Positions 13,655 through 63,899 of a stretch of DNA of 64,000 nt are shown here, piece by piece. Source of the DNA: an uncultured Gammaproteobacteria bacterium (GTDB taxonomy: Bacteria; Patescibacteriota; Microgenomatia; Daviesbacterales; UBA10151); contig CAYICZ010000001.1 in assembly GCA_964362195.1 (NCBI GenBank), positions 3,486 through 67,485 on the forward strand. Reading direction: 5' to 3'. The notes beneath the pieces were generated by a model. It worked only from the letters and a program-made list of their open reading frames with translations, did no database searches and was not told the DNA's origin. Made by a program: the position numbers and the translations under genes. The number at the start of each line of letters is the position of its first letter. The stretch's first letter is position 1.

Positions 13655-13656
13655 TT

Positions 13657-16461: not shown

Positions 16462-16463
16462 CT

Positions 16464-18613: not shown

Positions 18614-18628
18614 TATCAAAATTAATAG

Positions 18629-42534: not shown

Positions 42535-43183
42535 GAATTTTTTTTAAAACCTGCCTTGATTTAAGTGATCCCTCTATCACTCTTTCTAAATGATATCTTA
42601 AAACATTCTCCAGTTCCATAGCCTGATTCTCATTAATATCCATTTTCTCAACCTCATCCCAAGACGTAATTATTAAATACCCTAGTAATTTCCCAGTTTG
42701 TGCTGACACCCCAAGGGTGGAGATATAGGTTTTGGAGCTAAAATCTATAAAACCTAAGACCGATAATATTTTAACTTCAAATGCTCTGATCAGAATTTGT
42801 CTGGGTTTTCGCTCCAGTCTTCTTAAAACCTCAACCAAATGTTCGTATAAATTTCTATTTTCCTGATTTTCAGCAGTGAGTTTATCAATTAGCTCAATTA
42901 TGTGATATGCATAAGTTGAAAGAGTCAAATCTGATTTTATTTTTTGAAAAGTATTTAAAGAGCTGGCCTCTGTTAAGATTAAAAAAGTCTTTGCAGGGTG
43001 GAGGTACATCGAAACCCGATTAAGCAACTCTACATTCCCAGACCTTCTGGAAGTAATTCTCCTGACTCCTTTTGCCAAAACAGAAATCTTGCCTTTTTGG
43101 AGGGAAAATACAGTTAAAATCCGATCCGCCTCCCCCAAATTCCTCCTCTTTAAAATAATCCCTTCTGTTTTAAATCCATGCAT
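42527..43183 (-). CDS. recO: DNA repair protein RecO
   Basis: MHGFKTEGIILKRRNLGEADRILTVFSLQKGKISVLAKGVRR is the RecO OB-fold N-terminus. 218 aa. Confidence 0.8.
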   Translation of the reverse strand: MHGFKTEGIILKRRNLGEADRILTVFSLQKGKISVLAKGVRRITSRRSGNVELLNRVSMYLHPAKTFLILTEASSLNTFQKIKSDLTLSTYAYHIIELIDKLTAENQENRNLYEHLVEVLRRLERKPRQILIRAFEVKILSVLGFIDFSSKTYISTLGVSAQTGKLLGYLIITSWDEVEKMDINENQAMELENVLRYHLERVIEGSLKSRQVLKKIHG

Positions 43184-45057
43184 TAGATCTTAAATTCAAA
43201 TTCTCTATCAGTATCCAGTTTAAAATCCATCTTTTGGGAGCCTTGAAGTTTAATTTTATACTCAAAATCTTTAGCTCCGGGCTGTTTTTGAATAAGCAGC
43301 TTGTACTCCCCTTTTGGCTGATAGGGGATTGTATATTCTATTTCCAGTTTTCTAGTGTTTTGCGGCCGCACTTGAACAAATGCTTCAAACACGGTTTTCC
43401 CCAAATCATCTTCTATTGTTGTCACAGCAACTTCTGAGCCTTTGGATGAGATTAATTTAGATCCAGCTGGCACATAAAACCTGACATAATCCCTGTTTAT
43501 CCCGTTTAACCAGACCCCAAATGGCTGGTCATTTTTATATTCGATAGTTATTTTTTTGCGGGTCTCAGTGTTTTTAATATTAATTTCCTGGGTTACAGTT
43601 TGTGTTACATACAAATTAGATTTTCCGCCGGCAAAATTAGAATCATTAATGTGCAGGAAGTCTCCGTTATAATTTTTGATTTCTCCCGTCCAATTTAAAG
43701 AAGCAAGTGCTTCTTGCAACTTTGGATCATGCATATAAAACATCACATGTTTATTATTTGCCAAAAGGGCAATTGTTTCAATTAACTGAGGAAGCTTTTC
43801 TACATCAGCCCCAACAGATTTTGCCAAAATCTGCTGCATTAATACACCTAGAACTGCTTTTCTATCTTTCTCTCCTTTAGCAGCAATCTCTGCATAATTT
43901 TCCAGCTCATATATCACATTCGGACAGCTACATCTTTTATCCATCTCTGCAGAGTATTTTGTTCCATATACATCTATTGGCCCCGTTACCTCAATTAGAT
44001 TTTCAACAACCTGGGTATCAATAAAAATTATTCCATCAAAAGGCAAACCTTCATCTAAAAGTTCATACATTTTTTCAAATTGCTTGGCAGAAGTAGGCAC
44101 ATCCGGTGATAGATTAGAATCCCTCATACTCCAGGCAGACCTGGCCTTACCAGACATTTCAGGCAAATACTTAACAATTGGTGCAGGAGGAGTTAAGGGA
44201 CAGACTTTTGTTAAACAAACATTAAGCAGTTTCTCGTCCAGTCTATAAATATCATCAGAGGTAGTGGCTGAAACCTGTCCATTATTTATAGTAAGAGTTG
44301 CATAAGCTGTCATAAAACCACCTGTTGCCCTGATCTCTTTATCGTTTTGAAATAAAAGTAAATAATTCTTAGGGGTAGGTATGCCTAAAGCTTGTGGCGC
44401 AACCATTAGAGCATTTCTACCGGAAGTCACGGCAATTGATGATCCTATTATAAAATTCTTAGCAACTTCTAAATTTTTCCTGATTGTTTTGCCTTGAAAA
44501 GTTTCAGGATATTTATTAACATCTATATTTTTAACATCATCTGCGGCTTTTTCAAAATTACTTTGCACTTTATCAAGATATGGCAAGCTTTTGTCTAAAA
44601 GCTTCACTACCTGAGTTACTCTATCAGGCCCGGTCTTTGGATGCCCGTCAAATCCCAGCTCTGCTTTACTACCTGATAAATTATTTAATATCCAGTCAAG
44701 AGCAATTAATTCCTCAACCCCAGCACCAGTGAATCCTTTTACATCTGAATAATAACCACCTGCTATTGGAATAACTTTAAGCCAGAATAGAAAATTAAGA
44801 GCCAAATTTGCTTTCTGCAAACCCATCTTTGTTGCACTTAATTCTTTTGTTAACTGATCAAAGTTTTGCTCCTTGTATGCATTAATTAGTGATTTTGCGT
44901 GAGATGAAGTTTCTTTAAGACCAAGATATATAAAAATTGAAGGAAGTACTAAAGCAACCGTCAAAATCAGCAAAATTACACTTATTCTTTTGAAACCCTT
45001 ATTAGATCTTTTTGATAATCTGAAAGTATTTATTCTATTTAAATTAGTAAGAGGCAT
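43183..45057 (-). CDS. DUF4012-domain membrane-anchored protein (family associated with cell-wall polysaccharide loci)
   Basis: N-terminal TM helix and the signature LLLFQNDKEIRATGGFMTAYA (the DUF4012 ExRxxGG motif). 624 aa. Confidence 0.7.
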   Translation of the reverse strand: MPLTNLNRINTFRLSKRSNKGFKRISVILLILTVALVLPSIFIYLGLKETSSHAKSLINAYKEQNFDQLTKELSATKMGLQKANLALNFLFWLKVIPIAGGYYSDVKGFTGAGVEELIALDWILNNLSGSKAELGFDGHPKTGPDRVTQVVKLLDKSLPYLDKVQSNFEKAADDVKNIDVNKYPETFQGKTIRKNLEVAKNFIIGSSIAVTSGRNALMVAPQALGIPTPKNYLLLFQNDKEIRATGGFMTAYATLTINNGQVSATTSDDIYRLDEKLLNVCLTKVCPLTPPAPIVKYLPEMSGKARSAWSMRDSNLSPDVPTSAKQFEKMYELLDEGLPFDGIIFIDTQVVENLIEVTGPIDVYGTKYSAEMDKRCSCPNVIYELENYAEIAAKGEKDRKAVLGVLMQQILAKSVGADVEKLPQLIETIALLANNKHVMFYMHDPKLQEALASLNWTGEIKNYNGDFLHINDSNFAGGKSNLYVTQTVTQEINIKNTETRKKITIEYKNDQPFGVWLNGINRDYVRFYVPAGSKLISSKGSEVAVTTIEDDLGKTVFEAFVQVRPQNTRKLEIEYTIPYQPKGEYKLLIQKQPGAKDFEYKIKLQGSQKMDFKLDTDREFEFKI

Positions 45058-45058
45058 A

Positions 45059-45688
45059 TTAAATGGCTCCTCTTCCGGATAAAATAGCAGGCACGGTCTT
45101 AAATATTATCCAAATATCATAAATGAGTGATCGTTTTTTCACATATTTTGCATCCATCTTCACTCTTTTATCAAAATTAATTTCAGATCTTCCTGAAACC
45201 TGCCAAAGGCCTGTTACTCCCGGCTTACCGGATAAAATAATCTTAACAAATTTTCTGGAAGTTGGATACTTTTTTTGCTGCTCTTCCAGCTCATAAGGAT
45301 AATAAGCCCTGGGTCCTACCAGGCTCATTTCTCCCTTTAATATATTAAAAAATTGAGGGAATTCGTCTATGGAAAATCTCCTGATAAACTTTCCTACTCT
45401 GGTTACTCTTGGATCATTGAATATTTTGTAGCTATTTTTCTTATACTCTTCTAAAAGTTTAGGATTATTTTCCAAAATCTCATGGGCATTTTGTACCATT
45501 GATCTAAATTTATAGATTTTAAATAAACTCCCCTTTCTCCCTGCTCTCATAGGCGTATCTGCTAAAACCGGTCCGGGAGAATCTAACTTAATGGCGAGCG
45601 CAACCAAAAAAAGTAAGGGAGAGAGAATAATTATTCCAATAATTGATCCAATTATATCAACCAGCCTTTTTAGAAAATCGTAGATCAT
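45059..45688 (-). CDS. Small monotopic phosphoglycosyl transferase (bacterial sugar transferase, PglC/WbaP-C-terminal-like)
   Basis: LKRLVDIIGSIIGIIILSPLLFLVALAIKLDSPGPVL ... FKIYKFRSM ... DEFPQFFNILKGEMSLVGPR are conserved PGT motifs. Confidence 0.8.
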   Translation of the reverse strand: MIYDFLKRLVDIIGSIIGIIILSPLLFLVALAIKLDSPGPVLADTPMRAGRKGSLFKIYKFRSMVQNAHEILENNPKLLEEYKKNSYKIFNDPRVTRVGKFIRRFSIDEFPQFFNILKGEMSLVGPRAYYPYELEEQQKKYPTSRKFVKIILSGKPGVTGLWQVSGRSEINFDKRVKMDAKYVKKRSLIYDIWIIFKTVPAILSGRGAI

Positions 45689-45690
45689 AA

Positions 45691-46701
45691 TTAATTAGTG
45701 TACAACATTGAAGCAACTGTTTGCTTGAAATTGTGGGCAAAAATTTGTTTGGAAAACTTAAGCGCATTTTCTTTGCAAGCATTCTCTTTAATTTGATTAA
45801 GTTTACCCAAAGTCTTAACTAAACTCTCTACAGTAGGATAGTCAAAGAAAAGGCCGGTTTTTCCTTCTATAATCGTTTCCAGTGCTCCCCCACCCCTAAA
45901 AGCCACCACTCCCTTACCTATTGCCTGAGCCTCCAGCGATACCAAGCCAAAGTCCTCCAGCCCTGGAATAATTAATGCTTTGCATCCTGAAAGTATTCTA
46001 ACAACCATTTCATCATCCAATCCCCCGCTTATAATCTTAAGTTCTACTCCTATTTTCATGCAAGCTTCCTTTGCAAGGTCAATTCTTTTATAGGAATTAT
46101 CCCTGGCAACTGTTAAAAAATATCCCCCATCAAAGCTTTCTATATCCTTAAATCTCTCTAGATCCACAAAGGGATAAACAACTTTTGAATCCTTTCTGTA
46201 AATTTTCTTTATTCTCCTCTTAGCATTTTCAGAACCTGCTAAAAAGTAGTCTACTCTATTTGCCGATATTTGATCATATAATCTTAATTTGGTCATTAAA
46301 ATCTCAGCAAATCCCAGATTTCCATATCCGGAAAAGTGCCATAAAAATCTGGGCGGAGTGTGACAGAAACATATATGCTTTGTTTCCGGTTTTGTAATAA
46401 TACTTTTGGCAAATCTGGTGGTATGAGAAATCACCAAATCAAAGTTGTCAAAGCTAAATTGCTCAAAAGCGATTGGGTAAAGCGGAAGGAGCGCTTTATA
46501 TAAAGATTTCCATCCGGGAATTTTTTCCAAAAAAGAAGTGATTATTTTTTTCTTGCCAAATCTTTTTACTAATTCTTTGTTATTTCTGTCAAAAACAGAT
46601 GTATAAATAGGCGCATCAGGATAAATCTGACAAATTCCTTCCAAAACTCTTTCCGCTCCCCCCCACTGGACTAAATCATCATGAACTATTGCGACACGCA
46701 T
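45691..46701 (-). CDS. Glycosyltransferase family 4
   Basis: GT-B fold with a C-terminal EDFGLVSLEAQAIGKGVVA (E-x7-E-like) motif. Confidence 0.75.
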   Translation of the reverse strand: MRVAIVHDDLVQWGGAERVLEGICQIYPDAPIYTSVFDRNNKELVKRFGKKKIITSFLEKIPGWKSLYKALLPLYPIAFEQFSFDNFDLVISHTTRFAKSIITKPETKHICFCHTPPRFLWHFSGYGNLGFAEILMTKLRLYDQISANRVDYFLAGSENAKRRIKKIYRKDSKVVYPFVDLERFKDIESFDGGYFLTVARDNSYKRIDLAKEACMKIGVELKIISGGLDDEMVVRILSGCKALIIPGLEDFGLVSLEAQAIGKGVVAFRGGGALETIIEGKTGLFFDYPTVESLVKTLGKLNQIKENACKENALKFSKQIFAHNFKQTVASMLYTN

Positions 46702-47795
46702 TTTTGATATACCTCCATTGTGCTCTGAGCTAATTTTTCCCAGCTAAATTGTTTCACCCTTTTTTGACCTTTTTCTATCAAATCTTTTCTTAATCCTTCA
46801 TCATTTAATACCTTATCTATCTTATTAACCATATCTTCCTTATCCCCCGGATCAAAATACAAACAAGCATCTCCTCCCACTTCTTTTAAAGACCCGGCAT
46901 TTGATGAAACAACCGAGCAATCACAACTCATTGCTTCCAGTAATGGAATACCAAACCCCTCTTCAAATGAAGGCATTACAAAACATCTGGCATTTCTATA
47001 TAAAGTCACTAACTCTTCATCAGATATAGCACCCGTATAAATAATATTTTTCTGCTGAAATTCTTTTTTGATCCTTTGCCAAAAATAATGATCAGATCCT
47101 GATAAAATTAAAGTTAAATCCTGATATTTTTTTTGCAAGACCAAAAAGGCCTTAATTAATCCTTCCACATTTTTATGCGGATGTGCATTTCCAACATAAA
47201 ATATGTAGGGGGATTTTATTTTTGAAACCTTTGGAAGAATTGCTAATAATTTATCATCCACTGCTTCCGGTGTAACAACTATTTTTTCTTCTACTACTCT
47301 CCATTCCTTAATCAATAAATCTTTTACATAGTTGGATGGCACCAAAATTTTTAAAGATTTATTTATTGCGTTTCTAAAAATAGCACCATAAGCAAGCTGT
47401 TTAATTTTATAAGTAATTGGATTAAGGGTTGTTGATCTTCTCATCTGAAAATGTTGATGAATTAAATCATGAATTGTTACAATAAATTTTCCCTGATAAG
47501 CAAAGCTTGCGGGCATTCGCCCTAAAAAAATCGGCACATTAAAATGTGGAAAATGCACCAAATCAACTTTTAGGGAGTTAAGCAGCTTAGGTAACTTAAT
47601 TTGTTCTGTAACTCCATACCAGCTGAAATCTGCTAAAATCTTTTTAAAATTTTTATTAAATGTTAAATTGTGAAAGTCGTTTTTGGAAAGAAGGATAAAA
47701 TATTCATTTTTGCCGTCAAGCTTATTAATTAAATTTCTAATATATCTGCCAATTCCTGATTCTTGATACATTCTGGCATCAATTGCAATTTTCAT
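46686..47795 (-). CDS. Glycosyltransferase family 4
   Basis: EEGFGIPLLEAMSCDCSVV is the GT4 EX7E motif. Confidence 0.8.
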   Translation of the reverse strand: MKIAIDARMYQESGIGRYIRNLINKLDGKNEYFILLSKNDFHNLTFNKNFKKILADFSWYGVTEQIKLPKLLNSLKVDLVHFPHFNVPIFLGRMPASFAYQGKFIVTIHDLIHQHFQMRRSTTLNPITYKIKQLAYGAIFRNAINKSLKILVPSNYVKDLLIKEWRVVEEKIVVTPEAVDDKLLAILPKVSKIKSPYIFYVGNAHPHKNVEGLIKAFLVLQKKYQDLTLILSGSDHYFWQRIKKEFQQKNIIYTGAISDEELVTLYRNARCFVMPSFEEGFGIPLLEAMSCDCSVVSSNAGSLKEVGGDACLYFDPGDKEDMVNKIDKVLNDEGLRKDLIEKGQKRVKQFSWEKLAQSTMEVYQKCVSQ

Positions 47796-48979
47796 ACTTT
47801 TCCTAAATCCTCATAAATATCAGACAATTTTTTAGCAATCGGATCCCAATCATATTTAGCCTTAACCATTTTTCTGGCATTTGCTGCTATTTTTTGATAA
47901 AGATTTTTATTATTGAGCAGCTCAATTGCTGCAGATGCAATATCATCCGGTTTGTTGCGAATAACAACTTCAACTCCATCTCTTGCATCAGTTCCTCCAA
48001 TACCAATACTGGTTGTTACAACAGGTAATCCGGAGGCAAATGCCTCAAAGTTTTTATATCTGGTTCCACCTCCACCATAAATAGGTGCAACTAAAACAGA
48101 TGCTTCTTGATACACTTCCCTAATGTCTTCAACTTCCTCAACCTTAATATCATCAATTGCTAAATTTGGGAAAAATTTTTGAGCTTCTTTTCCGATAATC
48201 CAGAGTTTAGCCAAAGGCAAGGCTTTTTTTATTCTGGGCCAAATCCCCCTCACCAATATATCTACTGCTTCCCTATTTTGTAACCATGTAAAGTTACCCA
48301 CATATAGTATAATTTGTTCCTTTACCCGGGCAGAAACGGACTTATTGAAATATATGCTATCCACTCCGTTTGGTACAATATCTACATCCAATTTAGGTAC
48401 TTCAGAAATCATTATTCTTCTGTCTTCCTCTGACATCGCTACAACTTTCGAAGCTATCTTCCAATATCGAAGTTCCCAATATTTCATCTTTGAAACGTCG
48501 AAATAAAACAACGGCTTCAACGCTAGATTACGCGACTCTTTTGCAAAATGCCTATAAACTAAATATTCTATTGTTTGTTCAACTAAAAGGATGGGAATAT
48601 TAGTCTTTGGAATATGCGGCATTACATAAAAAGTCTCTGCATGTATTAAATCAAACTTCTCCGAATTTAGTTTTTTTTCTATGGCTGATCTTTCTCCCTT
48701 AGCCCAATTTCTGATAACCAGGAATGGATAAAAAGAAAAACCAGTTTGTAAAATATTACTAAGCGTCCAGGGTTTTTCAGACCTGCTAAAAACCGAAACT
48801 TCCTCGCAAAATTTTTTAAGTTCCCCAACATATGCTCTTTCTTTCTCATTTTTAATTAGAGAGAATAAGGTAATCTTGTGCCCCAAGGAGGACAATCTTT
48901 TAATCAAATTATACGATCTTGTCTGTCCTCCGGTAAGTAAAGGATACGGTAAATATGGAGTAAGCATTAGGATTCTCAT
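47792..48979 (-). CDS. Glycosyltransferase family 4
   Basis: GT-B fold; C-terminal GGGGTRYKNFEAFASGLPVVTT. Confidence 0.75.
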   Translation of the reverse strand: MRILMLTPYLPYPLLTGGQTRSYNLIKRLSSLGHKITLFSLIKNEKERAYVGELKKFCEEVSVFSRSEKPWTLSNILQTGFSFYPFLVIRNWAKGERSAIEKKLNSEKFDLIHAETFYVMPHIPKTNIPILLVEQTIEYLVYRHFAKESRNLALKPLFYFDVSKMKYWELRYWKIASKVVAMSEEDRRIMISEVPKLDVDIVPNGVDSIYFNKSVSARVKEQIILYVGNFTWLQNREAVDILVRGIWPRIKKALPLAKLWIIGKEAQKFFPNLAIDDIKVEEVEDIREVYQEASVLVAPIYGGGGTRYKNFEAFASGLPVVTTSIGIGGTDARDGVEVVIRNKPDDIASAAIELLNNKNLYQKIAANARKMVKAKYDWDPIAKKLSDIYEDLGKV

Positions 48980-48986
48980 AAAAATT

Positions 48987-51869: not shown

Positions 51870-51870
51870 T

Positions 51871-53022: not shown

Positions 53023-53084
53023 ATATTAATTATACACAAGGCTTAAGACACAATCAAAGCACTACACGCACTACGCACCGAAAC

Positions 53085-53099
53085 ACACACCGGGTGTGT
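53085..53099. promoter_or_regulatory. Perfect 15-bp palindrome ACACACC-G-GGTGTGT in a locally GC-rich intergenic spacer (candidate operator)
   Basis: Lies in the 104-nt spacer upstream of the acetyltransferase start. The surrounding ~50 nt are much more GC-rich than the genome. Confidence 0.3.
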
Positions 53100-53125
53100 C
53101 GTATGTAGACACCTCGGAATTTTAT

Positions 53126-56582: not shown

Positions 56583-57975
56583 AATGGTATATAAATCCTA
56601 CTCCTGAAAAGTTTTTGATATCTGTTTGCTTATATCTCAAATTCTCTAATTTTTTAGCTACTAATCTTTCAGGATCGCTAATCTGCACTAAATAATCAAC
56701 CAAATAAATATTTGTTCCTGTAAAATCTGCCACATCTCTGTCGTTCCTTGCCGGAAAATCTTTCAAAGCGCCTTTTGCATTTAATTCACCTTTTGCATAA
56801 TAATTAAAAGGAGGTAGTGTACCTGAACTCTCAAACAAAATCAGGGAATTTTTCATAGATTTTAAGTAATTCACAACTCCTCTCCAATCTTCTCTTTGAT
56901 ATAAAGGATTCAATAAATAAACAAAAGTGCAAAACAGTTCTATTAATATTACTAAACCTAAGGAAATATATCTTAATCTATTTTTAAATGACAAAATCCC
57001 CGCAGACACCAAAATAATAAAACCCGGGATAACAAATAAAACTCTAAAGTAGCTATAAACCGGCACTACAAGTGAAATAGCTGTTGCTATGAACAAAGGA
57101 ATAATAATCAAAATAATTAACAGTTTCTTAGAAAAATTATTAATAGATTTAACTCCACTATATAAAAGAAAGGCAAATAAACTGCAAACAGGCAATAAAA
57201 CTGCGCCGTATAAAAATTTATCTGTCAAACTAATTCTCCCGATAATAAATTTTACAAATGTCAAAGGTAATGTTTTAAAATCAAAAGCTCCATTAATTAA
57301 CTTCCATGCCGGCAAATTGGCAGACGCAACAGATCCAACATCCAGTTGAGCAATAAATGTTGGTATCCACCAAATACCAACTAAAACTGCAGCAATTAGT
57401 GCAATAAACCATTTTTTTAGTAATTCCCTTTTCCTAATTAATAATAGAAAAACAAATTGAGCTGGAAAAAGAAAATAGGCTATGTAATCAGAGGCCAACA
57501 CTCCGATGTCGCTTAAAACAAGAAGAAATAAGTTTAGTTTTTCTTTTTTTAATACTTTAATCATCAAAAAAATGTTAATTGAAACAGCTAAAGTTGCCAA
57601 AGAATACATTCTGGCCTCCTGACTGTAATAGATATGCAAAGGATTAATGGATAAAAGTAATGCAGCTATTATTCCTAATTCTCTGGATTTTAATTTCTTA
57701 CCAATTAAGTAAACTATCCAGATAGTTAATACTCCGAAAATTACAGAAGGCATTCTGACTGCAATTTCAGAATAGCCAAAAACCTTTCCCCAAAACCAAA
57801 GCAAGATAAACCAGCCAGGCGGGTGAAAATCTGCAACAGCATAATGGGTCACCAAGTCTACTAAAGAATAACTTTTAACAGCTAGGGTATTAATCGCCTC
57901 ATCAAGCCATAGGCTTTGGTTTAAACTTATAATTCTTAAAATTAAAGAAAGAACCAGGATAAAAAAAATAATCAT
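56569..57975 (-). CDS. GT39/ArnT-like (PMT_2) GT-C glycosyltransferase
   Basis: NQSLWLDEAINTLAV in the first loop (a DE motif) followed by about 11 TM helices. Confidence 0.65.
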   Translation of the reverse strand: MIIFFILVLSLILRIISLNQSLWLDEAINTLAVKSYSLVDLVTHYAVADFHPPGWFILLWFWGKVFGYSEIAVRMPSVIFGVLTIWIVYLIGKKLKSRELGIIAALLLSINPLHIYYSQEARMYSLATLAVSINIFLMIKVLKKEKLNLFLLVLSDIGVLASDYIAYFLFPAQFVFLLLIRKRELLKKWFIALIAAVLVGIWWIPTFIAQLDVGSVASANLPAWKLINGAFDFKTLPLTFVKFIIGRISLTDKFLYGAVLLPVCSLFAFLLYSGVKSINNFSKKLLIILIIIPLFIATAISLVVPVYSYFRVLFVIPGFIILVSAGILSFKNRLRYISLGLVILIELFCTFVYLLNPLYQREDWRGVVNYLKSMKNSLILFESSGTLPPFNYYAKGELNAKGALKDFPARNDRDVADFTGTNIYLVDYLVQISDPERLVAKKLENLRYKQTDIKNFSGVGFIYHYVKQ

Positions 57976-58716
57976 TTATTTTAAATTTTGAAACCCATAT
58001 AATTTTATCCATACAGTAATTTTATAAATGGCCATAAGATAACTTAAAATAAATCCTCGCAGTCCATCTAAAAAACCCAATTTATAAACGAATCTAGTAA
58101 AAAATTCCAATAAAGGATCCCAAATTAATCTAAACAGGGAAAATCTAACTCCTCTTTTAAATAAACTTTTAGCAAGTAAATCAGAATAAGCCTCATTACC
58201 CTGTAAAAACTCAGCGACAGAGTCTGTTTGAAAATGTATTTTTGCGTTTTTTAATTCTCCTACTTTACCTAATACTCCAACCTCTTCATGCACTTCACCT
58301 ATCCATTTGCCTTTATCCTTTTTCCAGAGCCAGATATGCTTATCCGGACTCCACCAAGTGTGTTTTATTTCTTTACCTAAAATAAAATTTCTTCTTGGGA
58401 TTAAATAAGCGCTATATTCTTTATTTTCAACAGCATTTTTTATTTCCATAGTTAAACCGGAAGGAATTTCCTCGTCTGCATCCAGGGATAATATCCAATC
58501 ACCTGAGGCTTTCGAAACTGCAAAGTTTTTTTGATCTGCAAAATTATCAAACTTTCTAAAAAAAACTTTTGCCCCTAATTTATTTGCAATCTCAACTGTT
58601 TTATCTTCACTTCCGGAATCAATAACAATTATCTCATCAGATAGATTCTTTATAGATTTTATAGCCTTCTCTATTTTTTCCTCTTCGTTTAAAGTAATTA
58701 TTGTAGTACTTATCAT
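57976..58716 (-). CDS. Glycosyltransferase family 2
   Basis: ISTTIITLNEEEKIEKAIKSI ... IIVIDSGSEDKT ... LSLDADEEI is the GT2 DxD. Confidence 0.75.
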   Translation of the reverse strand: MISTTIITLNEEEKIEKAIKSIKNLSDEIIVIDSGSEDKTVEIANKLGAKVFFRKFDNFADQKNFAVSKASGDWILSLDADEEIPSGLTMEIKNAVENKEYSAYLIPRRNFILGKEIKHTWWSPDKHIWLWKKDKGKWIGEVHEEVGVLGKVGELKNAKIHFQTDSVAEFLQGNEAYSDLLAKSLFKRGVRFSLFRLIWDPLLEFFTRFVYKLGFLDGLRGFILSYLMAIYKITVWIKLYGFQNLK

Positions 58717-59654
58717 TTGATTAAATTATTCAAAACTATTCTGTATTCATTTGCGATTTTCTCCCATGAAAATTTTTCTGCCTGTAATCTTGCTTTTTTC
58801 TTCCAATCTAACTTTAAGGCTTGATCTAGCGTCTGAGAATATAATGCTATGTTTTCAACATCCACTAATAATCCCCCATCACCTATAATTTCTCTTCGTG
58901 AAGCATCATCCGGAGCAACAACTCCCAAACCTGATGCCATAGCTTCCAAATATACAATTCCAAAAGCCTCCCTATCCCAGGAAGGTAAAGTGAATAAATC
59001 ACAACTCCTGTAAACCTTGGGCATTTCTTCATTTTTAAAGCTGACAATCATAAATCTCTTACCGAGTTTTTCTTCTCCTGTTTTTTTCAAATCTTCTTTC
59101 AAAGGGCCTTCTCCTACGATTAATACAGATGCAGTTCCTATTTTTGAAACAGCATCAATAACCCTCTCATGATGTTTATACCAAACTAAAGCTCCAACAG
59201 AGAGAATAATTGGTCTTTGCAGTTCTATTTTCATTTTTTCACCATTTGGCGAGAATTTATCTAAATCAATTCCGTTGGGGATTTTTACTATCTTTGATCC
59301 CCAGGCATATTTTTTTGCCCAGCGGGCAGCAGAATCAGAAAGGGCAACAAACACATCAGGTTTAATAACAATGTTCCAGATATCATCTATTCCCACTCCA
59401 CTATGTCCAGTTATTAGCAACTTGTACTTTCCGATTATTCTGCCCAGCGAAAATTTTAAACTTTGTAATCTACCGTTAATTGGAATTACTACATCATAGT
59501 GTCCTGCCAAAACATCTTTTAAAGAATATGCCCTTTCTCCTGTAAATACGTCGACACTATGATTTTTAGACAGCCTTGAGGATAATTCCTTTACAAAAAC
59601 TTCCGCTCCTCTCTCAGTTGTATTTTGATGTCTGTTTAAAAATACTATCCTCAT
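58713..59654 (-). CDS. Glycosyltransferase family 4
   Basis: EAFGIVYLEAMASGLGVVAPD is the EX7E motif. Confidence 0.75.
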   Translation of the reverse strand: MRIVFLNRHQNTTERGAEVFVKELSSRLSKNHSVDVFTGERAYSLKDVLAGHYDVVIPINGRLQSLKFSLGRIIGKYKLLITGHSGVGIDDIWNIVIKPDVFVALSDSAARWAKKYAWGSKIVKIPNGIDLDKFSPNGEKMKIELQRPIILSVGALVWYKHHERVIDAVSKIGTASVLIVGEGPLKEDLKKTGEEKLGKRFMIVSFKNEEMPKVYRSCDLFTLPSWDREAFGIVYLEAMASGLGVVAPDDASRREIIGDGGLLVDVENIALYSQTLDQALKLDWKKKARLQAEKFSWEKIANEYRIVLNNLIK

Positions 59655-59657
59655 ATT

Positions 59658-60362
59658 TTAGTCCGTGAATCTATATTTAATTAATGTCCAAATAGCAGAT
59701 ATTCCATCTTTCCAACTAATTTTTTTACCTTCTTTATATGTACGCGGTTTAGTAACAATTGGAACCTCAACTATTTTAATTCCCATTTTCAATATTTTAG
59801 CTGTAATTTCAGCTTCAAAATCAAATCTCTTAGACTGTATGTTAATCCTTTGTAGGATATCTTTTCTAAAAATCTTATAACCTGTCTCCATATCTGTTAA
59901 ATTTCCTGCAAATAGAATATTCGTAAGAAGAGTCAGAAATCTATTTGCAATAAGGTGAATCGGTAAAATAGTTTTATCTTTTCCCCAAATCTTCAGTGGA
60001 TAATTTATTAATCTTGTGCCAAATACAACCATCGTAGTTTTTTTCTCAAAAGGTTTTATTAGTTCGTTGTAGTATTTTGGATCATATTCTAAATCAGCAT
60101 CTTGAATTATAACCAAGTCACCGGATGAATTTTTTATTCCATCTCTTACGCTTGCACCTTTGCCCATATTATTGTTATGTCTTAAAATCTTTACTCGTTT
60201 TGTCCATTTTTTTAAAATACTCGGAGTTTTATCTGTTGAGGCATCATCCACTACTATTATTTCTTTTTTGTAATCCGGCAAATCAACACTTACCACATTT
60301 CGTAAAACCCGATCTATAGTATTTTGCTCATTAAATACCGGGATTATAATTGATAGTTTCAT
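59658..60362 (-). CDS. Polyprenyl-phosphate sugar synthase, DPM1/GtrB/ArnC-like GT2
   Basis: LSIIIPVFNEQNTIDRVL ... IIVVDDASTDKT ... HNNNMGKGASVRDGI ... IIQDADLEYDP. These are hallmark motifs of dolichol-P-mannose synthase-like enzymes. Confidence 0.8.
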   Translation of the reverse strand: MKLSIIIPVFNEQNTIDRVLRNVVSVDLPDYKKEIIVVDDASTDKTPSILKKWTKRVKILRHNNNMGKGASVRDGIKNSSGDLVIIQDADLEYDPKYYNELIKPFEKKTTMVVFGTRLINYPLKIWGKDKTILPIHLIANRFLTLLTNILFAGNLTDMETGYKIFRKDILQRINIQSKRFDFEAEITAKILKMGIKIVEVPIVTKPRTYKEGKKISWKDGISAIWTLIKYRFTD

Positions 60363-61048
60363 TATTTTTTTGCAATGATAAGAAAGGAGGTACCGAATGA
60401 AGGATTTATTAAATCTTCTAATCTTAAAAAAATTGGTGCAATTAAATTAAATAGTTTAATTTTGGATTGATCAACAATTTTATTTTTTAATACTCTTCCG
60501 GAGATGAACCAACCCAGCGCACCTAACAAATTTAAAGACCTGAATTTCAAAATAACAAACCCACTCATCTGCAGTTTTGTTATTATTTCCTTTTTAGAAT
60601 ACCTTCGAAAATGACCGATTGATTTATCTATTTCACCGTATAAAAAAGGATGGGCGGGAACAAGTAAAATTAATGTCCCCTCTTCTTTAAAAATTTTGTG
60701 CATATTATCAATTGCCCGACTATCTTCTTTTATATGCTCCAGGATGTTTATACAAACAACAGTGTCAAACTTTTCGTCCTTAAAAAAATATTTATCCTTT
60801 TCTATATCCCCAAATCCTATCTTTGCGTCAGTAACTTCCTTTTTTGTTTGTTTGATAAAATTTTCATCAATATCAATTGCCCAAATTTTACCAAATTTTG
60901 TAAGTGTTTTCGTAAAATTTCCTATCCCACACCCCACTTCCAGAATTTTCCCGCTTAAATAATCCTTAAACTTATCCAAAGTCCACTGGTTATACCACTC
61001 TGCCTGATTCATACTCTCTAATGTTTGTTCTCCAAAATTATTTTCCAT
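60362..61048 (-). CDS. Class I SAM-dependent methyltransferase
   Basis: ILEVGCGIGNFTKTL (motif I) and VVCINILEHI. Confidence 0.75.
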   Translation of the reverse strand: MENNFGEQTLESMNQAEWYNQWTLDKFKDYLSGKILEVGCGIGNFTKTLTKFGKIWAIDIDENFIKQTKKEVTDAKIGFGDIEKDKYFFKDEKFDTVVCINILEHIKEDSRAIDNMHKIFKEEGTLILLVPAHPFLYGEIDKSIGHFRRYSKKEIITKLQMSGFVILKFRSLNLLGALGWFISGRVLKNKIVDQSKIKLFNLIAPIFLRLEDLINPSFGTSFLIIAKK

Positions 61049-61846
61049 TTATACTTTCTGAGCTATTACAACTAGGTGTGGACCCCACATTAAAAAAGGG
61101 TATAACCCTAACTCTCCTAAAAAGCGAAATACTTTTTGATGAGTTTTAGCTATCTTTAATTCTTCCGACCAACAAGAATTGAATTCTCTAATTTTCATGT
61201 TTTTTTTCTTTAGAAAGATTAATAAGGAGCCTATATAAGGCTCTATAGTTGTGTCCCAGTCTATATTATAGTTTTTCTCATCACCAATAGGTTTTACCTG
61301 AGTCCAATCTAAAGTTTGATGAAGATTAAATAAGGAAAATAAATCCTTCAACAAACCGATAATAAATTTTATTAATCTTGATCCTTTAAAAGGAGGCGAA
61401 CATCTATTTGGAGCTCCGTAGTTAGGTGCAATAAGAACTAAATACCCATCTCTAGCTGTAAGTCTTATCGCCTCAGATAAAATTTTAGTAGGATTATTCA
61501 AATGCTCCAATACGTAAGCCGAATAAACCAAATCAAAACTATTGTCTCTAAACTGGGTTCTTTCTAAGTCTCCTTGAAAAAAAGTTAGTTTCGGAAAGTT
61601 TTTTTTAGCCAATCTAATGGCCGTTGAACTAATATCTATTCCTGTACCCTTATATTTACTGCCAGTTACTAGATTTAACCTTGAGCCTTCTCCACAACCT
61701 AAATCCAGAATATTAGTTGCTCCTTCTCTTAAATTAAACAGTGCTCTCATGCCTGGATGGTTTGTATCTAAACTACCCTTCTTAGCCATTTGATAATAAA
61801 CATCACTCCTCCATATCCCTCTTATTAATTCTTTTTTTATTTCCAT
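61049..61846 (-). CDS. Class I SAM-dependent methyltransferase
   Basis: ILDLGCGEGSRLN (motif I) and LVYSAYVLEHL. The start was moved to the internal Met to remove an 85-nt overlap. Confidence 0.7.
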   Translation of the reverse strand: MEIKKELIRGIWRSDVYYQMAKKGSLDTNHPGMRALFNLREGATNILDLGCGEGSRLNLVTGSKYKGTGIDISSTAIRLAKKNFPKLTFFQGDLERTQFRDNSFDLVYSAYVLEHLNNPTKILSEAIRLTARDGYLVLIAPNYGAPNRCSPPFKGSRLIKFIIGLLKDLFSLFNLHQTLDWTQVKPIGDEKNYNIDWDTTIEPYIGSLLIFLKKKNMKIREFNSCWSEELKIAKTHQKVFRFLGELGLYPFLMWGPHLVVIAQKV

Positions 61847-61848
61847 TA

Positions 61849-62658
61849 TTAATTTAAAACTCCTCTCCTTATCTTCTTTAAAGGGGTTAATATTTGAGAT
61901 TTTATTAAATTGATTGTGGAAATTTTTTGCCAAGGCGAGGGAACGATTTCTGGAGCTAATTCTGATAAAACTTCCGGGAATTTAAAATCTTTTCCTACCT
62001 TTTTACCTAACTCATATTTATATTTATCATTTTTTTTACTTGAGCGTTTCAGGTGAGTAGCGTGAAAATAAGGCGTATTTAGAAAAATACAATCTTTTCT
62101 TCTTTGAATAGGCAAGTTATTTTTGTCAAAATATCCCTCCATTCCATAAGGTAAGTCTACATGCAAACCGGGAATTTTTTTACTGATGGCTTTTAAACTA
62201 AAATTTCCTACTTTCCCCTGTATATTGTATCTTCCTGCGAATTTATCCTGTAGGTGGTAGATATCTCCCACAGGTACAATGAAAGGAACAAAGATGCTTC
62301 CCTGTTTAATATTTTTAATCTTTTTAATCAAACTTTTAATTGATTCTTCCCACCAAATCTCATCTCCGTCAACTATTAAAATCCAATCACAATCTGAGTA
62401 ATCCAGCATCTCCTGTCTGGCTTTGGTGAATTGATACTTGTCAACTTCCCCTATTTCCCTAAATTCTATTTTTTTACCTTTAATTTTTTGAATTTCACGA
62501 ATTATTTCAACAGTTTTATCTGTTGAGCCGGTATCATAAATTAAAACTTTATCCACAAAATCCACCACACTCATAATGGCAAACCAGATAAAGTTTTCTT
62601 CGTTATGCACAATAGTATTTGCCCAAATTTTCATTTTTTTAGTTTGAATAACAGCCAA
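61849..62658 (-). CDS. Glycosyltransferase family 2
   Basis: IWANTIVHNEENFIWFAIMSVVDFVDKVLIYDTGSTDKT ... IVDGDEIWWE. Confidence 0.7.
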   Translation of the reverse strand: MAVIQTKKMKIWANTIVHNEENFIWFAIMSVVDFVDKVLIYDTGSTDKTVEIIREIQKIKGKKIEFREIGEVDKYQFTKARQEMLDYSDCDWILIVDGDEIWWEESIKSLIKKIKNIKQGSIFVPFIVPVGDIYHLQDKFAGRYNIQGKVGNFSLKAISKKIPGLHVDLPYGMEGYFDKNNLPIQRRKDCIFLNTPYFHATHLKRSSKKNDKYKYELGKKVGKDFKFPEVLSELAPEIVPSPWQKISTINLIKSQILTPLKKIRRGVLN

Positions 62659-63899
62659 ATTAAAGGATAAACAAAATTAAAAGTCGTACCTATAAGTACT
62701 GTTATAGATGCCCCAATTATTCCGTAATTTGAAATTAAAAAATAACCCAGTATTCCGATTATTAATAAGTGTCCTATGGCTACCGGAATAAACACAGCAG
62801 GTTTTCCAAAATAAAAAATAATTGCATTATGAACGGGAACTGAAAATAGAAAAACTAGCATTGCTAAAAATATAAATATAAAGGGCATGACAGCTTCCTG
62901 ATATGAAGATCCATAAATAATGGGGATTAAATAAATCGCCAGGGGGATTGATAAAATTCCCAGTATACAAATTCCTGTTACCAACAATTGTAATTTTTTA
63001 AAATAAGTCAGCATCTGTTCTCTACTTTGAAAACCGGCAAATTTTGGCGCAGCAACTAAACCGATTGCAGAAACTAGTTGAGGCATTACTTGAGCCAATT
63101 GATTAGCAGCTCCGTAAATTCCCACCTCTCTAACACTTAACAAAGAAGCACTAAGATATGTATCCAGTCTTGAAGAAAATGCTGCAATTATAGAAAAAAT
63201 TGCAACCGGGATGTTATATGCAAAAAGTTCTTTTGAAAGACTAAATTCTTTCCTTGCAGAAAATATTTTCCTTGTTGGTAAAATTAACATAGAAATAAAA
63301 AATCCAAAAAAGGGTAAGATTATATAAATAAGTAAGCTATTTTCTAGATTAAGTTTTAAAGAATACCCTAAAAAAATTATCAGAATGAGTCTTAATAAAT
63401 TAGTGATAATGTTAATTCCACTCCAAAGAAAATATTTTTGAAAAGCCTGCAAAGCTGAGGTGGCAAATGAGAAAAGCAATGCACCCCCTACTCCGAAAGA
63501 AACCAATCTTAAAGCTAGAGTTAACTCTTTTTTATGAAAAATTTCAGTTGCTAAAAAAGGAGACAAAGTAAAAACTAATAAAAAAGTTAACAACCAAACT
63601 ATTAATTTTATCTCTAAACTTAGGTGTAAAAATCTCATAGCCTTATCTTTATTGTTAACTAAATTAGCTGAGACAAAACGGACAAGTCCCGTGTTAGTCC
63701 CGATATCTGCAATATCAGAAATCAAAGTTAAGGTAACTATGGAGATTGTAAGCAAACCAAACTCAACCGGTCCTAGAATTCTTGCAACCAAAATATAGAA
63801 TAAAGCACCAAGAAAACCATTTAGCATGGTTCCCACAATAGTTATACTGGATTGTTTAAATGTAGCTGTACTTATCATATCAAACAGAAATTTCTTCAT
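62631..63899 (-). CDS. Wzx-like oligosaccharide flippase (MOP superfamily polysaccharide biosynthesis protein)
   Basis: 422 aa, about 12 TM helices, with a Wzx-like N-terminal region (SSITIVGTMLNGFLGALFYILVARILGPVEFGL). A TATAAT lies 9 nt upstream of its ATG. Confidence 0.7.
   Translation of the reverse strand: MKKFLFDMISTATFKQSSITIVGTMLNGFLGALFYILVARILGPVEFGLLTISIVTLTLISDIADIGTNTGLVRFVSANLVNNKDKAMRFLHLSLEIKLIVWLLTFLLVFTLSPFLATEIFHKKELTLALRLVSFGVGGALLFSFATSALQAFQKYFLWSGINIITNLLRLILIIFLGYSLKLNLENSLLIYIILPFFGFFISMLILPTRKIFSARKEFSLSKELFAYNIPVAIFSIIAAFSSRLDTYLSASLLSVREVGIYGAANQLAQVMPQLVSAIGLVAAPKFAGFQSREQMLTYFKKLQLLVTGICILGILSIPLAIYLIPIIYGSSYQEAVMPFIFIFLAMLVFLFSVPVHNAIIFYFGKPAVFIPVAIGHLLIIGILGYFLISNYGIIGASITVLIGTTFNFVYPLIWLLFKLKK

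What the first reader, a model, noticed from the sequence alone, without database searches (positions are those of the whole stretch)
43183..63899. Large polyprenyl-phosphate-sugar-dependent envelope glycosylation locus (GT-C enzymes plus DPM1-like synthase plus flippases plus Wzy_C)
This ~21 kb minus-strand block combines the following:
- an initiating small phosphoglycosyl transferase (45059-45688) and a DUF4012 protein;
- six GT4 and three GT2 enzymes, one of them a DPM1/GtrB-like polyprenyl-P-sugar synthase (59658-60362);
- two clear GT39/ArnT-like GT-C enzymes (48987-50453, 56569-57975) plus another polytopic protein (55233-56582);
- a Wzy_C protein (50454-51869), an LbH O-acetyltransferase, two SAM methyltransferases and a Wzx flippase.

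DPM1-like synthases supply lipid-linked monosaccharides to GT39/ArnT/PMT-type GT-C enzymes that act on the extracytoplasmic face. That is established for ArnC/ArnT, Ppm1/Pmt and GtrB/GtrC.

The co-occurrence of two glycan-assembly logics in one locus suggests an elaborate, possibly protein- or glycopolymer-modifying system in a small-genome organism. One logic is a Wzx/Wzy-type oligosaccharide on a PGT-initiated lipid. The other is GT-C-mediated periplasmic decoration with acetylation and methylation. The acceptor is unknown.
Basis: partly seen in the sequence, partly recalled or inferred. Interest (0 to 1): 0.6.

Follow-up and report, generated by a model that had tools for sequence, protein, structure and literature searches.

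The report
Conserved cell-envelope glycan locus of Microgenomates
This is a 21-gene sugar-polymer assembly line in an ultra-small groundwater bacterium (Candidatus Daviesbacteria); its building principle is already known from other bacteria, but it is kept gene-for-gene across a whole class of uncultured bacteria, which points to a core cell-wall component, not a variable capsule.

Summary
All 20 minus-strand ORFs exist at the stated coordinates, and Pfam confirms the families:
- a small PGT, DUF4012, Wzy_C, an LbH acetyltransferase and a Wzx flippase
- six GT4 and three GT2
- two PMT_2 GT-Cs and two methyltransferases

Corrections and additions:
- Only one flippase lies in the locus, and there is no GtrA.
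- The locus runs past the window end into a conserved, family-less polytopic protein of about 880 aa.
- The organism is a Daviesbacteria (CPR).
- The whole gene order is collinear in 47 of 52 species-level relatives (Davies-, Woese-, Amesbacteria). Identities match housekeeping genes, and the locus sits next to the dcw cluster.

PGT/Wzx/Wzy assembly combined with a DPM1-like synthase and GT-C enzymes is a well-known design (Shigella Gtr, streptococcal and lactococcal wall polysaccharides, mycobacterial arabinogalactan).

Most likely product: a conserved, wall-associated heteropolysaccharide. The acceptor is unproven.

Rating: a new variant of a known kind, of moderate interest.

The parts
63919..64000 (-). 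3' end (last ~26 codons plus stop) of a conserved, family-less polytopic membrane protein of about 880 aa. It is the first gene of the array and is cut by the window end.
   Evidence: The window tail translates to EPQKYILPGLVISALTLFASLLLLLV*. This matches the C-terminus of L003:769-3435 and its orthologues (alignment A2). There is no Pfam or PDB hit. A sub-threshold NCBIfam hit to MmpA (1e-9 to 3e-13) appears in 4 of 5 orthologues. All 263 homologues lack Pfam domains and are named hypothetical.
62631..63899 (-). MOP-family (Wzx-type) flippase, 422 aa
   Evidence: Pfam Polysacc_synt 3.3e-21 and Polysacc_synt_3 1.8e-17. Polytopic by hydropathy. Present in 32 syntenic loci.
61849..62658 (-). GT2 glycosyltransferase (GT2c), cytoplasmic
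   Evidence: Pfam Glycos_transf_2 3.5e-15, N-terminal half only. Not DPM1-like.
61049..61933 (-). SAM methyltransferase (MT2). The real start is probably downstream of the listed TTG. Often absent in relatives.
   Evidence: Methyltransf_11 6.7e-22, with the domain starting at residue 76. Found in only 16 of 47 syntenic loci.
60362..61048 (-). SAM methyltransferase (MT1)
   Evidence: Methyltransf_11 3e-17. Found in 37 of 47 syntenic loci.
59658..60362 (-). DPM1/GtrB/PpgS-like GT2 (GT2b): candidate polyprenyl-phosphate-sugar synthase, 234 aa, no TM helix
   Evidence: Glycos_transf_2 1.7e-36, full length. Best PDB relative is DPM synthase 5mlz at 2.9e-15 over residues 1-212, then GtrB and ArnC. 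NCBIfam: AglJ 7.9e-31, PpgS positions 4-214 of 226, ArnC. D40 and D88-A-D90 are conserved in 39 orthologues. It is the most evenly conserved gene in the locus, at 52-64% identity.
58713..59654 (-). GT4 glycosyltransferase (GT4f)
   Evidence: Glycos_transf_1 5.1e-27.
57976..58716 (-). GT2 glycosyltransferase (GT2a)
   Evidence: Glycos_transf_2 1.1e-20. Only generic NCBIfam hits.
56569..57975 (-). GT-C enzyme (GTC2), PMT_2 family, 468 aa
   Evidence: PMT_2 2.1e-16. Weak Agl23 hit at 3e-11. A D25-E26 motif directly after TM1, plus D49 and H51, are conserved in 42 orthologues.
55233..56582 (-). Third GT-C enzyme (GTC3), a divergent Microgenomates-specific family, 444-449 aa
54211..55236 (-). GT4 glycosyltransferase (GT4e)
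   Evidence: Glycos_transf_1 2.3e-19.
53126..54214 (-). GT4 glycosyltransferase (GT4d); last gene of the upstream module
   Evidence: Glycos_transf_1 1.2e-38.
53023..53125 (-). The only intergenic gap in the locus; possible internal promoter and module boundary
   Evidence: ORF coordinates. Two promoter-like matches on the minus strand, at 53148-53119 and 53057-53029, though the scan as a whole is not above chance. In L056 and L057 the genes upstream of this point are replaced.
52420..53022 (-). Left-handed beta-helix (hexapeptide) acetyltransferase, WcaF-like
   Evidence: Hexapep 3.5e-17. NCBIfam WcaF family 9.4e-32, below the cut-off.
51871..52419 (-). Conserved 182-aa protein with no family: N-terminal TM, about 130-aa outside domain, C-terminal TM
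   Evidence: No Pfam or NCBIfam hit. Topology from hydropathy. Present in 44 of 47 syntenic loci, with 61 columns at least 90% conserved.
50454..51869 (-). Wzy_C-domain polytopic protein. Whether it is a polymerase, a ligase or an O-oligosaccharyltransferase is unresolved.
   Evidence: Wzy_C 1.1e-9. Only weak NCBIfam hits: TfpM 8e-5 and repeat-unit polymerase 4.5e-3. No PDB sequence hit.
48987..50453 (-). GT-C enzyme (GTC1), PMT_2/PMT family, 488 aa
   Evidence: PMT_2 7.3e-13 and PMT 3.4e-8. A34-D35-W-H-S-W-R-Q41, D43, D65 and E84 are conserved in 43 orthologues.
47792..48979 (-). GT4 glycosyltransferase (GT4c)
   Evidence: Glyco_trans_1_4 1.2e-21. TIGR03087-like at 2.4e-42, below the cut-off.
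46686..47795 (-). GT4 glycosyltransferase (GT4b)
   Evidence: Glycos_transf_1 9.6e-37.
45691..46701 (-). GT4 glycosyltransferase (GT4a)
   Evidence: Glycos_transf_1 4e-14.
45059..45688 (-). Small monotopic phosphoglycosyl transferase (initiating PGT), 209 aa
   Evidence: Bac_transf 1.6e-61. It aligns to the catalytic C-terminal domains of the WbaP, WcaJ and EPS_sugtrans models at 1e-63 to 1e-75.
43183..45057 (-). DUF4012 protein, 624 aa: N-terminal TM anchor, helical bundle, alpha/beta core with an LCP-like fold, C-terminal beta-sandwich. Last gene of the locus.

Best explanation
**What it is.** The block is the larger part of a ~23.5-kb, 21-gene operon-like array. It assembles a conserved envelope heteropolysaccharide in a Candidatus Daviesbacteria (Microgenomates, CPR) cell. 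That cell has a peptidoglycan wall and no outer membrane.

**Shown here**
- The gene families.
- Three GT-C enzymes with conserved acidic loop-1 motifs.
- A soluble DPM1-like GT2.
- A small PGT, one MOP flippase and a Wzy_C protein.
- Class-wide collinearity at housekeeping-level identity.

**Inferred mechanism**
1. On the cytoplasmic face the PGT puts a hexose-1-phosphate on undecaprenyl phosphate.
2. GT4 and GT2 enzymes extend it. The LbH acetyltransferase and the methyltransferases modify it.
3. In parallel the DPM1-like GT2 makes a polyprenyl-monophosphate sugar. This is either used as such or, as in lactococci, extended into a monophosphate-linked oligosaccharide.
4. The MOP flippase(s) export the lipid-linked intermediates.
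5. Outside, the Wzy_C protein polymerises or ligates the diphosphate-linked unit.
6. The three GT-Cs, and perhaps the ~880-aa upstream polytopic protein, add, polymerise or graft sugars from the monophosphate-linked donors.
7. The membrane-anchored DUF4012 protein has a core resembling LCP phosphotransferases. It is the best candidate for fixing the finished polymer to peptidoglycan.

**Two modules.** The array appears to split at the single intergenic gap.
- Module B: big protein-Wzx-GT2c-MT-MT-GT2b-GT4f-GT2a-GTC2-GTC3-GT4e-GT4d.
- Module A: LbH-u182-WzyC-GTC1-GT4c-GT4b-GT4a-PGT-DUF4012.
For: - **Families:**
- **GTC3 is a GT-C:**
- **Conserved catalytic-type residues** in all three GT-Cs and in GT2b across 39-53 orthologues.
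- **Taxon:**
- **Collinearity:** 47 of 52 species-representative loci carry at least 6 orthologues in the same order, and 41 carry at least 10. This holds down to 28-45% identity in Woese- and Amesbacteria.
- **Housekeeping-level identity:** against a relative at ~70% identity, locus proteins are 55-79% identical. The neighbours RecO, aaRS, FtsI and MurA are 71, 59, 73 and 67% identical.
- **Conserved neighbourhood:** the linkage DUF4012-RecO-aaRS-u297-mraZ-mraW-ftsI-mur is conserved.
- **No sign of an island:** GC does not deviate and there are no mobile elements at the borders.
- **Module split:**
- **Precedent for the mechanism:** PMC9574508 and PMC11127046.
Against: - No biochemical or structural datum identifies the sugars, the polymer or the acceptor.
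- No canonical LCP, Wzz or GtrA family hit occurs in the locus.
- One flippase for two kinds of lipid intermediate is a gap in the model.
- Module boundaries rest on one relative and one intergenic gap.
- Strong conservation is also compatible with an essential protein-glycosylation system.
Confidence: 0.55

Rival explanations
1. **General protein O-glycosylation machine.** The Wzy_C protein acts as a PglL/TfpM-type O-oligosaccharyltransferase. It moves the PGT-initiated oligosaccharide onto pilins, S-layer proteins or other surface proteins. The PMT_2-type GT-Cs O-glycosylate Ser/Thr-rich regions with sugar from the DPM1-like synthase, as with actinobacterial Ppm1/Pmt or streptococcal PgfS/PgfM.
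For: - Wzy_C is shared by O-OTases, and the best, though weak, NCBIfam hit is TfpM at 8e-5.
- GTC1 hits the PMT model and GTC2 has the PMT-type D-E motif.
- GT2b's second-best NCBIfam hit is PgfS.
- CPR bacteria are rich in type IV pili (PMC6744442).
- Strong conservation would fit an essential glycoprotein.
Against: - Nine cytoplasmic GTs plus three or four GT-Cs interleaved in one collinear array is more typical of wall polysaccharide loci.
- No candidate acceptor gene (pilin or S-layer) is in the array.
- The DUF4012/PGT pairing recurs in an EPS cluster.
- The TfpM hit covers only about 100 C-terminal residues and is far below the cut-off.
Confidence: 0.2
2. **Conventional, strain-variable capsule or EPS.** A Wzx/Wzy-dependent polymer with add-on, seroconversion-type side-chain glycosylation, like Gtr in Shigella. 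It would have no structural role in the wall.
For: - PGT, Wzx, Wzy_C, GT4/GT2 enzymes and a WcaF-like acetyltransferase are the standard capsule/EPS gene set.
- DUF4012 was noted in a Bifidobacterium CPS/EPS cluster.
Against: - Capsule and O-antigen loci vary between strains. This one is collinear across at least three candidate phylum-level lineages, with housekeeping-level identity.
- No tyrosine kinase, PCP or Wza-type export genes are present.
- GC matches the surroundings and there are no mobile elements at the borders.
- The GT-Cs are core members of the array, not accessory ones.
Confidence: 0.1
3. **Membrane-anchored lipoglycan.** The product is LM/LAM-like or a glycosylated lipoteichoic-type polymer, built mainly on the outer face by the GT-Cs from one polyprenyl-P-sugar donor. 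It stays in the membrane and is not linked to peptidoglycan.
For: - One DPM1-like synthase feeds three or four GT-Cs. This matches the mycobacterial Ppm1 with PimE/MptA/MptB/MptC pattern.
- The upstream large protein has sub-threshold similarity to MmpA, which is related to the AftD membrane domain.
Against: - No lipid-anchor synthesis genes (PI or glycolipid synthases) are in the array.
- The presence of a PGT, Wzy_C and an LCP-like DUF4012 protein argues for a diphosphate-linked, transferable polymer.
Confidence: 0.1

Closest known systems
Three- and four-component extracytoplasmic glycosylation systems (GtrA/GtrB/Gtr* of Shigella and Salmonella; GacI/J/K/L of Streptococcus pyogenes; CsdAB/CflA of Lactococcus; ArnC/ArnT)
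   Same: - A GT2 of the DPM1/GtrB type, together with GT-C fold transferases, in a locus that also builds a lipid-linked glycan.
- The soluble GT2 paired with a Wzx-type flippase, not a GtrA-type one, echoes the four-component GacI/J/K/L layout (PMC9574508).
   Different: - Three GT-Cs, possibly four, for one synthase.
- No GtrA/SMR flippase and no recognisable small activator protein.
- The GT-Cs are invariant core genes, not serotype-specific accessories.
- Two of the polytopic proteins (GTC3 and the ~880-aa protein) belong to families without curated models.
Lactococcus lactis rhamnan-PSP (wps) and enterococcal EPA cell-wall polysaccharide loci
   Same: - A two-module wall polysaccharide.
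- A GT-A-initiated, monophosphate-linked oligosaccharide is extended in the cytoplasm and exported by a Wzx-type flippase.
- It is then polymerised and grafted by GT-C enzymes, with a two-TM co-polymerase (WpsH). The topology of the 182-aa protein resembles WpsH.
   Different: - No rml genes, rhamnosyltransferases or ABC transporter.
- A PGT plus Wzy_C module takes the place of the rhamnan module.
- A DUF4012 protein takes the place of a canonical LCP ligase.
- No sequence relationship beyond the superfamily level.
Mycobacterial arabinogalactan / LM-LAM assembly (Ppm1, DPA pathway, PimE, Mpt, Aft and Emb GT-Cs, Lcp1)
   Same: - A conserved, essential-type wall glycan whose outer-face steps are carried out by several GT-Cs using polyprenyl-monophosphate sugars.
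- Structural neighbours of GTC3 include PimE and AftA/B/D.
- The upstream large protein shows sub-threshold MmpA/AftD-like similarity.
   Different: - No decaprenyl-phosphoribose pathway genes and no galactan or arabinan enzymes.
- A much smaller system, in a different phylum and with a different initiation enzyme.
LCP (LytR-CpsA-Psr) glycopolymer-to-peptidoglycan ligases, compared with the DUF4012 protein
   Same: - An N-terminal membrane anchor and an extracytoplasmic alpha/beta core.
- The gene sits next to the priming PGT, as cpsA sits near cpsE.
- Motifs are collinear: FIDxxVVxxLIxxTGPIDV versus VDFxGFxxVIxxVGGIDV.
   Different: - No HMM-level similarity.
- Several LCP arginines are not conserved.
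- Extra helical-bundle and beta-sandwich domains are present.
- Foldseek does not recover LCP.

Membership tests
Three-component extracytoplasmic glycosylation system | GT2 (GT-A fold) polyprenyl-phosphate-sugar synthase of the DPM1/GtrB/ArnC type | tested here: met
   - 59658-60362: full-length Glycos_transf_2 at 1.7e-36.
- The best PDB relative is DPM synthase 5mlz over residues 1-212, then GtrB and ArnC.
- NCBIfam hits are AglJ, PgfS, PpgS and ArnC, all below equivalog cut-offs.
- The DAD motif is conserved.
- This is family-level evidence only; the activity was not tested.
Three-component extracytoplasmic glycosylation system | Integral-membrane GT-C fold transferase with an acidic motif in the first outside loop | tested here: met
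   - PMT_2 hits above the gathering score for 48987-50453 and 56569-57975.
- Conserved D35/D43, D25-E26 and E32/D52 respectively.
Three-component extracytoplasmic glycosylation system | Dedicated flippase for the polyprenyl-P-sugar (GtrA/SMR type or MOP/MATE type) | tested here: inconclusive
   - No GtrA- or SMR-like ORF is present; the locus has no unassigned space.
- One MOP flippase is present. It could serve this role, as GacK and ORF14 do, but then the diphosphate-linked unit lacks a flippase of its own.
- A second MOP flippase lies at 16464-17687.
Wzx/Wzy-dependent polysaccharide pathway | Initiating polyprenyl-phosphate phosphoglycosyl transferase | tested here: met
   Bac_transf 1.6e-61, covering the whole catalytic domain.
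Wzx/Wzy-dependent polysaccharide pathway | Wzx flippase | tested here: met
   Polysacc_synt 3.3e-21.
Wzx/Wzy-dependent polysaccharide pathway | Wzy repeat-unit polymerase | tested here: inconclusive
   The Wzy_C domain scores 1.1e-9. This domain is shared by polymerases, WaaL ligases and O-OTases. NCBIfam hits to TfpM and to the repeat-unit polymerase are both far below cut-off.
Wzx/Wzy-dependent polysaccharide pathway | Polysaccharide co-polymerase (Wzz/PCP) | tested here: not met
   No Wzz/PCP family hit occurs in any ORF. The 182-aa protein has only the two-TM topology in common.
LCP (LytR-CpsA-Psr) ligases (for the DUF4012 protein) | LCP alpha/beta fold | tested here: inconclusive
LCP (LytR-CpsA-Psr) ligases (for the DUF4012 protein) | Match to the LytR_cpsA_psr sequence model and its conserved arginines | tested here: not met
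   There is no Pfam hit even at E up to 10 in 30 orthologues. The PDB profile search finds no LCP. hhalign gives 1.7% probability, and the 'RMR' arginines align to E/A/K.
GT39 protein O-mannosyltransferases | Protein Ser/Thr acceptor and Dol/polyprenyl-P-Man donor | not testable with these tools
   Only domain-level similarity is available: PMT 3.4e-8 for GTC1 and a DE motif in GTC2. There are no PDB sequence hits.
Rhamnose-rich cell wall polysaccharide loci (rgp/wps/epa) | rml genes, rhamnosyltransferases and an ABC transporter for the rhamnan backbone | tested here: not met
   None of the 20 ORFs, and none of the flanking genes scanned, has such domains.

The most novel reading that the evidence does not exclude
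Microgenomates, a large class of ultra-small uncultured bacteria, may all carry one vertically inherited secondary cell-wall polymer that is probably essential.

- Much of it would be assembled outside the membrane by three or four GT-C enzymes. Two of these belong to lineage-specific families with no curated model.
- It would be attached to peptidoglycan by DUF4012. That would make DUF4012 a previously unrecognised, highly diverged branch of the LCP ligase fold.
- This reading would give a function to a CPR-enriched orphan family.
- It would also define a lineage marker and a possible host-interaction or phage-receptor structure.
Probability: 0.25. Interest if true: 0.7.

Novelty: new variant of a known kind. 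Interest (0 to 1): 0.5.

Why it matters
CPR/Patescibacteria envelopes are almost uncharacterised, and their surface is where these episymbionts meet hosts and phages.

- **Scale.** The array takes up about 2% of a ~1.1-Mb genome. It is kept in order from Daviesbacteria to Woese- and Amesbacteria, and it abuts the division/cell-wall cluster. That makes it a strong candidate for a defining wall component of the class.
- **Testable leads.** DUF4012 could be the wall ligase. GTC3 and the ~880-aa protein could be new GT-C families. GT2b could be a single donor synthase feeding several GT-Cs.
- **Limit.** The design principle itself is not new, which caps the surprise.

Tried and rejected
- **Exact-sequence look-up of the 449-aa GTC3.** It found nothing because the deposited start codon differs. 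The 444-aa form was found.
- **hhalign of the GTC3 profile against GTC1 and GTC2.** No detectable relation, so the three GT-Cs are not recent paralogues.
- **PDB sequence searches for GTC1, GTC2, GTC3 and Wzy_C.** No usable hits.
- **The ~880-aa upstream protein.** No Pfam or PDB hits, as a single sequence or as a profile. hhalign against GTC3 found nothing. There is only a sub-threshold MmpA hit.
- **Promoter and terminator scan.** Counts are at or below shuffled expectation, so it gives no operon evidence beyond gene packing.
- **GT2a and GT2c as further polyprenyl-P-sugar synthases.** Rejected: only their N-terminal halves match GT2, and they show no DPM/GtrB preference.
- **Horizontally acquired island.** Rejected on GC, the absence of mobile elements at the borders, and synteny.
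- **Literature searches for a description of this locus in CPR.** Nothing relevant in the held library.

Full report
**1. Observation**

They overlap by a few bases or abut. The only intergenic space is 53023-53125.

Pfam hits above gathering score:

| Coordinates | Family |
|---|---|
| 43183-45057 | DUF4012 |
| 45059-45688 | small Bac_transf phosphoglycosyl transferase |
| 45691-46701, 46686-47795, 47792-48979, 53126-54214, 54211-55236, 58713-59654 | six GT4 enzymes |
| 57976-58716, 59658-60362, 61849-62658 | three GT2 enzymes |
| 48987-50453, 56569-57975 | two PMT_2 proteins |
| 50454-51869 | Wzy_C |
| 52420-53022 | hexapeptide acetyltransferase |
| 60362-61048, 61049-61933 | two class I methyltransferases |
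| 62631-63899 | Polysacc_synt (Wzx-type) flippase |

**2. The DPM1-like enzyme**

- The 234-aa GT2 at 59658-60362 matches the GT2 model end to end.
- Its best solved relative is Pyrococcus furiosus dolichol-phosphate-mannose synthase, over residues 1-212. GtrB and ArnC follow.
- Its best NCBIfam hits are AglJ, PgfS, PpgS (nearly full length) and ArnC, all below equivalog cut-offs.
- It has no TM helix, like human DPM1, mycobacterial PpgS or streptococcal GacI-type enzymes.
- D40 and D88-A-D90 are conserved in 39 orthologues. It is the most evenly conserved gene of the array, at 52-64% identity even in the most distant relatives.
- The other two GT2s match only through their N-terminal halves and show no such preference.

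**3. Three GT-Cs, not two**

- The 449-aa polytopic protein at 55233-56582 has no Pfam hit of its own. However, 14 of 29 orthologues hit PMT_2 (best 2.7e-9) and one hits GT87.
- An AlphaFold2 model built on 29 orthologues has pLDDT 74 and pTM 0.74.
- All three GT-Cs keep acidic residues in the first outside loop across 42-53 orthologues:
  - GTC1: D35, D43
  - GTC2: D25-E26
  - GTC3: E32, D52, H54
- The three are not detectably related to each other by profile comparison.

**4. Limits of the locus**

- **Downstream.** The array ends at DUF4012. It is followed, on the same strand, by recO, a class II aminoacyl-tRNA synthetase, a 297-aa single-TM protein and a complete dcw cluster from mraZ to ftsZ.
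- **Upstream.** The window ends 101 nt beyond the Wzx start. Those bases encode the C-terminus of an ~880-aa polytopic protein that precedes Wzx in most relatives.
- **That upstream protein** has no Pfam or PDB match.
  - It has 263 homologues, all "hypothetical".
  - It has only a sub-threshold match to MmpA. MmpA's authors relate that protein to the membrane domain of the GT-C AftD (PMC8698533).
- In relatives the gene before it is divergently oriented, so it is the first gene of the array.

**5. Organism and conservation**

- Homologues carry names of Candidatus Daviesbacteria, and identical short contigs come from a Hainich groundwater assembly.
- A scan of one genome per species found 52 loci encoding a GTC3 relative. 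They lie in Daviesbacteria, Woesebacteria, Amesbacteria and unnamed Microgenomates.
- In 47 of them at least six orthologues, and in 41 at least ten, lie in the same order as here. The limit is set only by the 10-kb flanks and contig ends. Identities go down to 28-45%.
- Variation is small. One methyltransferase is often missing, and an occasional extra GT2, GT-C-like or unknown gene is inserted.
- Against a relative on a 1.1-Mb contig, locus proteins are 55-79% identical. RecO, the synthetase, FtsI and MurA are 71, 59, 73 and 67% identical. The link to recO and the dcw cluster is kept.
- GC content does not stand out.
- This is the opposite of what capsule or O-antigen loci show.

**6. Two modules**

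In that same relative the genes upstream of the acetyltransferase are replaced by unrelated genes. The break coincides with the only intergenic gap in the window. Two promoter-like matches lie around that gap, one inside it and one overlapping the end of GT4d, although the scan as a whole is not above chance.

I read this as two units:
- **Upstream unit:** large polytopic protein, Wzx, GT2c, two methyltransferases, the DPM1-like GT2, GT4f, GT2a, GTC2, GTC3, GT4e, GT4d.
- **Downstream unit:** acetyltransferase, the 182-aa two-TM protein, Wzy_C, GTC1, three GT4s, PGT, DUF4012.

**7. DUF4012**

- **Background.** The family is CPR-enriched and of unknown function (PMC6744442). In Bifidobacterium longum it also sits next to the priming PGT and Wzz (PMC5412050). 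Orthologues here are 69-88% identical.
- **Model.** The AlphaFold2 model (pLDDT 77) shows four parts: an N-terminal anchor, a helical bundle, an alpha/beta core at about residues 229-460, and a C-terminal beta-sandwich.
- **Evidence for an LCP fold.**
  - A bait search confirmed that those chains are LCP proteins.
  - hhalign against three real LCP sequences gives a collinear 147-column alignment joining FIDTQVVENLIEVTGPIDV to VDFDGFKDVINEVGGIDV.
- **Evidence against.**
  - That hhalign alignment has P=0.03 and 1.7% probability, and it loses the LCP R-x-R arginines.
  - Foldseek, Pfam and a PDB profile search give no support.
- **Conclusion.** An LCP-like fold is moderately supported. Catalytic equivalence is not shown.

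**8. Mechanism**

- **Shown:** the families, motifs, topology and conservation.
- **Inferred from established pathways** (Wzx/Wzy assembly; three- and four-component glycosylation, PMC11127046 and PMC9574508): see the best explanation.
- **Open points:**
  - which flippase moves which lipid intermediate;
  - whether Wzy_C polymerises or ligates;
  - whether the GT-Cs decorate, polymerise or graft;
  - what the acceptor is.
- No nucleotide-sugar synthesis genes are in the array, so common sugar nucleotides are presumably used.

**9. Comparison and novelty**

- The design is known. The closest analogues are streptococcal, lactococcal and enterococcal wall polysaccharide loci and mycobacterial arabinogalactan/LAM assembly.
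- The locus fails membership of the rhamnan-type loci, having no rml genes, rhamnosyltransferases or ABC transporter. It lacks GtrA, Wzz and canonical LCP.
- What is new:
  - class-wide collinear conservation in CPR;
  - the number of core GT-Cs per synthase;
  - two polytopic families without models;
  - the possible LCP-like nature of DUF4012.
- I found no description of the locus in the searchable literature.

Verdict: a real feature, correctly spotted. It is a new variant of a known kind, with interest about 0.5.

Noticed in passing
window 10032-17687: A second, smaller envelope-glycan cluster:
- a polytopic protein with C-terminal TPR repeats (10032-11648, +)
- an Ig/Glucodextran_B-domain surface protein (11838-12599, +)
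- a PIG-V-like GT-C (12596-13654, -; Mannosyl_trans2 1.5e-5)
- a second Wzy_C protein (13657-14796, +)
- a GT2 that is not DPM-like (14762-15748, -)
- a methyltransferase (15745-16461, -)
- a second MOP flippase (16464-17687, -)

It could share the DPM1-like donor synthase or lend its flippase to the main locus.
   Followed up: partly
window 63919-64000 and L003:769-3435: A conserved ~880-aa polytopic protein, with a large outside domain and a C-terminal TM anchor, heads the array in relatives and is cut by the window end. It has no curated family. It shows sub-threshold MmpA similarity, and MmpA's authors relate that protein to the AftD membrane domain.
   Followed up: partly
window 29929-30636 (+): An IS200-like Y1 transposase gene sits on the opposite strand inside the dcw cluster, between ftsW and murG.
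   Followed up: no
window 35220-35804 (-): The MurB-like ORF is only 194 aa, with the FAD_binding_4 part alone. A 192-aa version is conserved in a relative (L056), so it is probably not an assembly artefact.
   Followed up: partly
window 40339-41232 (-): A 297-aa single-TM protein with no family lies between the aminoacyl-tRNA synthetase and mraZ. It is conserved at 66% identity, in the same position, in a relative.
   Followed up: partly
L056/L057 320-1953: In one Daviesbacteria relative the upstream half of the locus is replaced by a 310-aa unknown protein and an Asp/Glu racemase directly before the acetyltransferase. This shows the array can be split at the single intergenic gap.
   Followed up: partly
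L021:1-687 (-): In a relative, the gene divergent from the start of the array is yet another PMT_2-like GT-C fragment (2.7e-5, just below the gathering score). This suggests further GT-Cs cluster around the locus.
   Followed up: no
window 18774-19491 (-), 6574-7020 (-), 7486-9249 (-), 9396-9998 (+): Other genes seen in the window: a PIN-domain toxin-like gene with a small upstream ORF, a SET-domain protein, a PolX-type polymerase with a PHP domain, and a LysM-repeat protein. Four tRNA genes lie at 9207-9281, 11647-11796 and 18628-18700.
   Followed up: no
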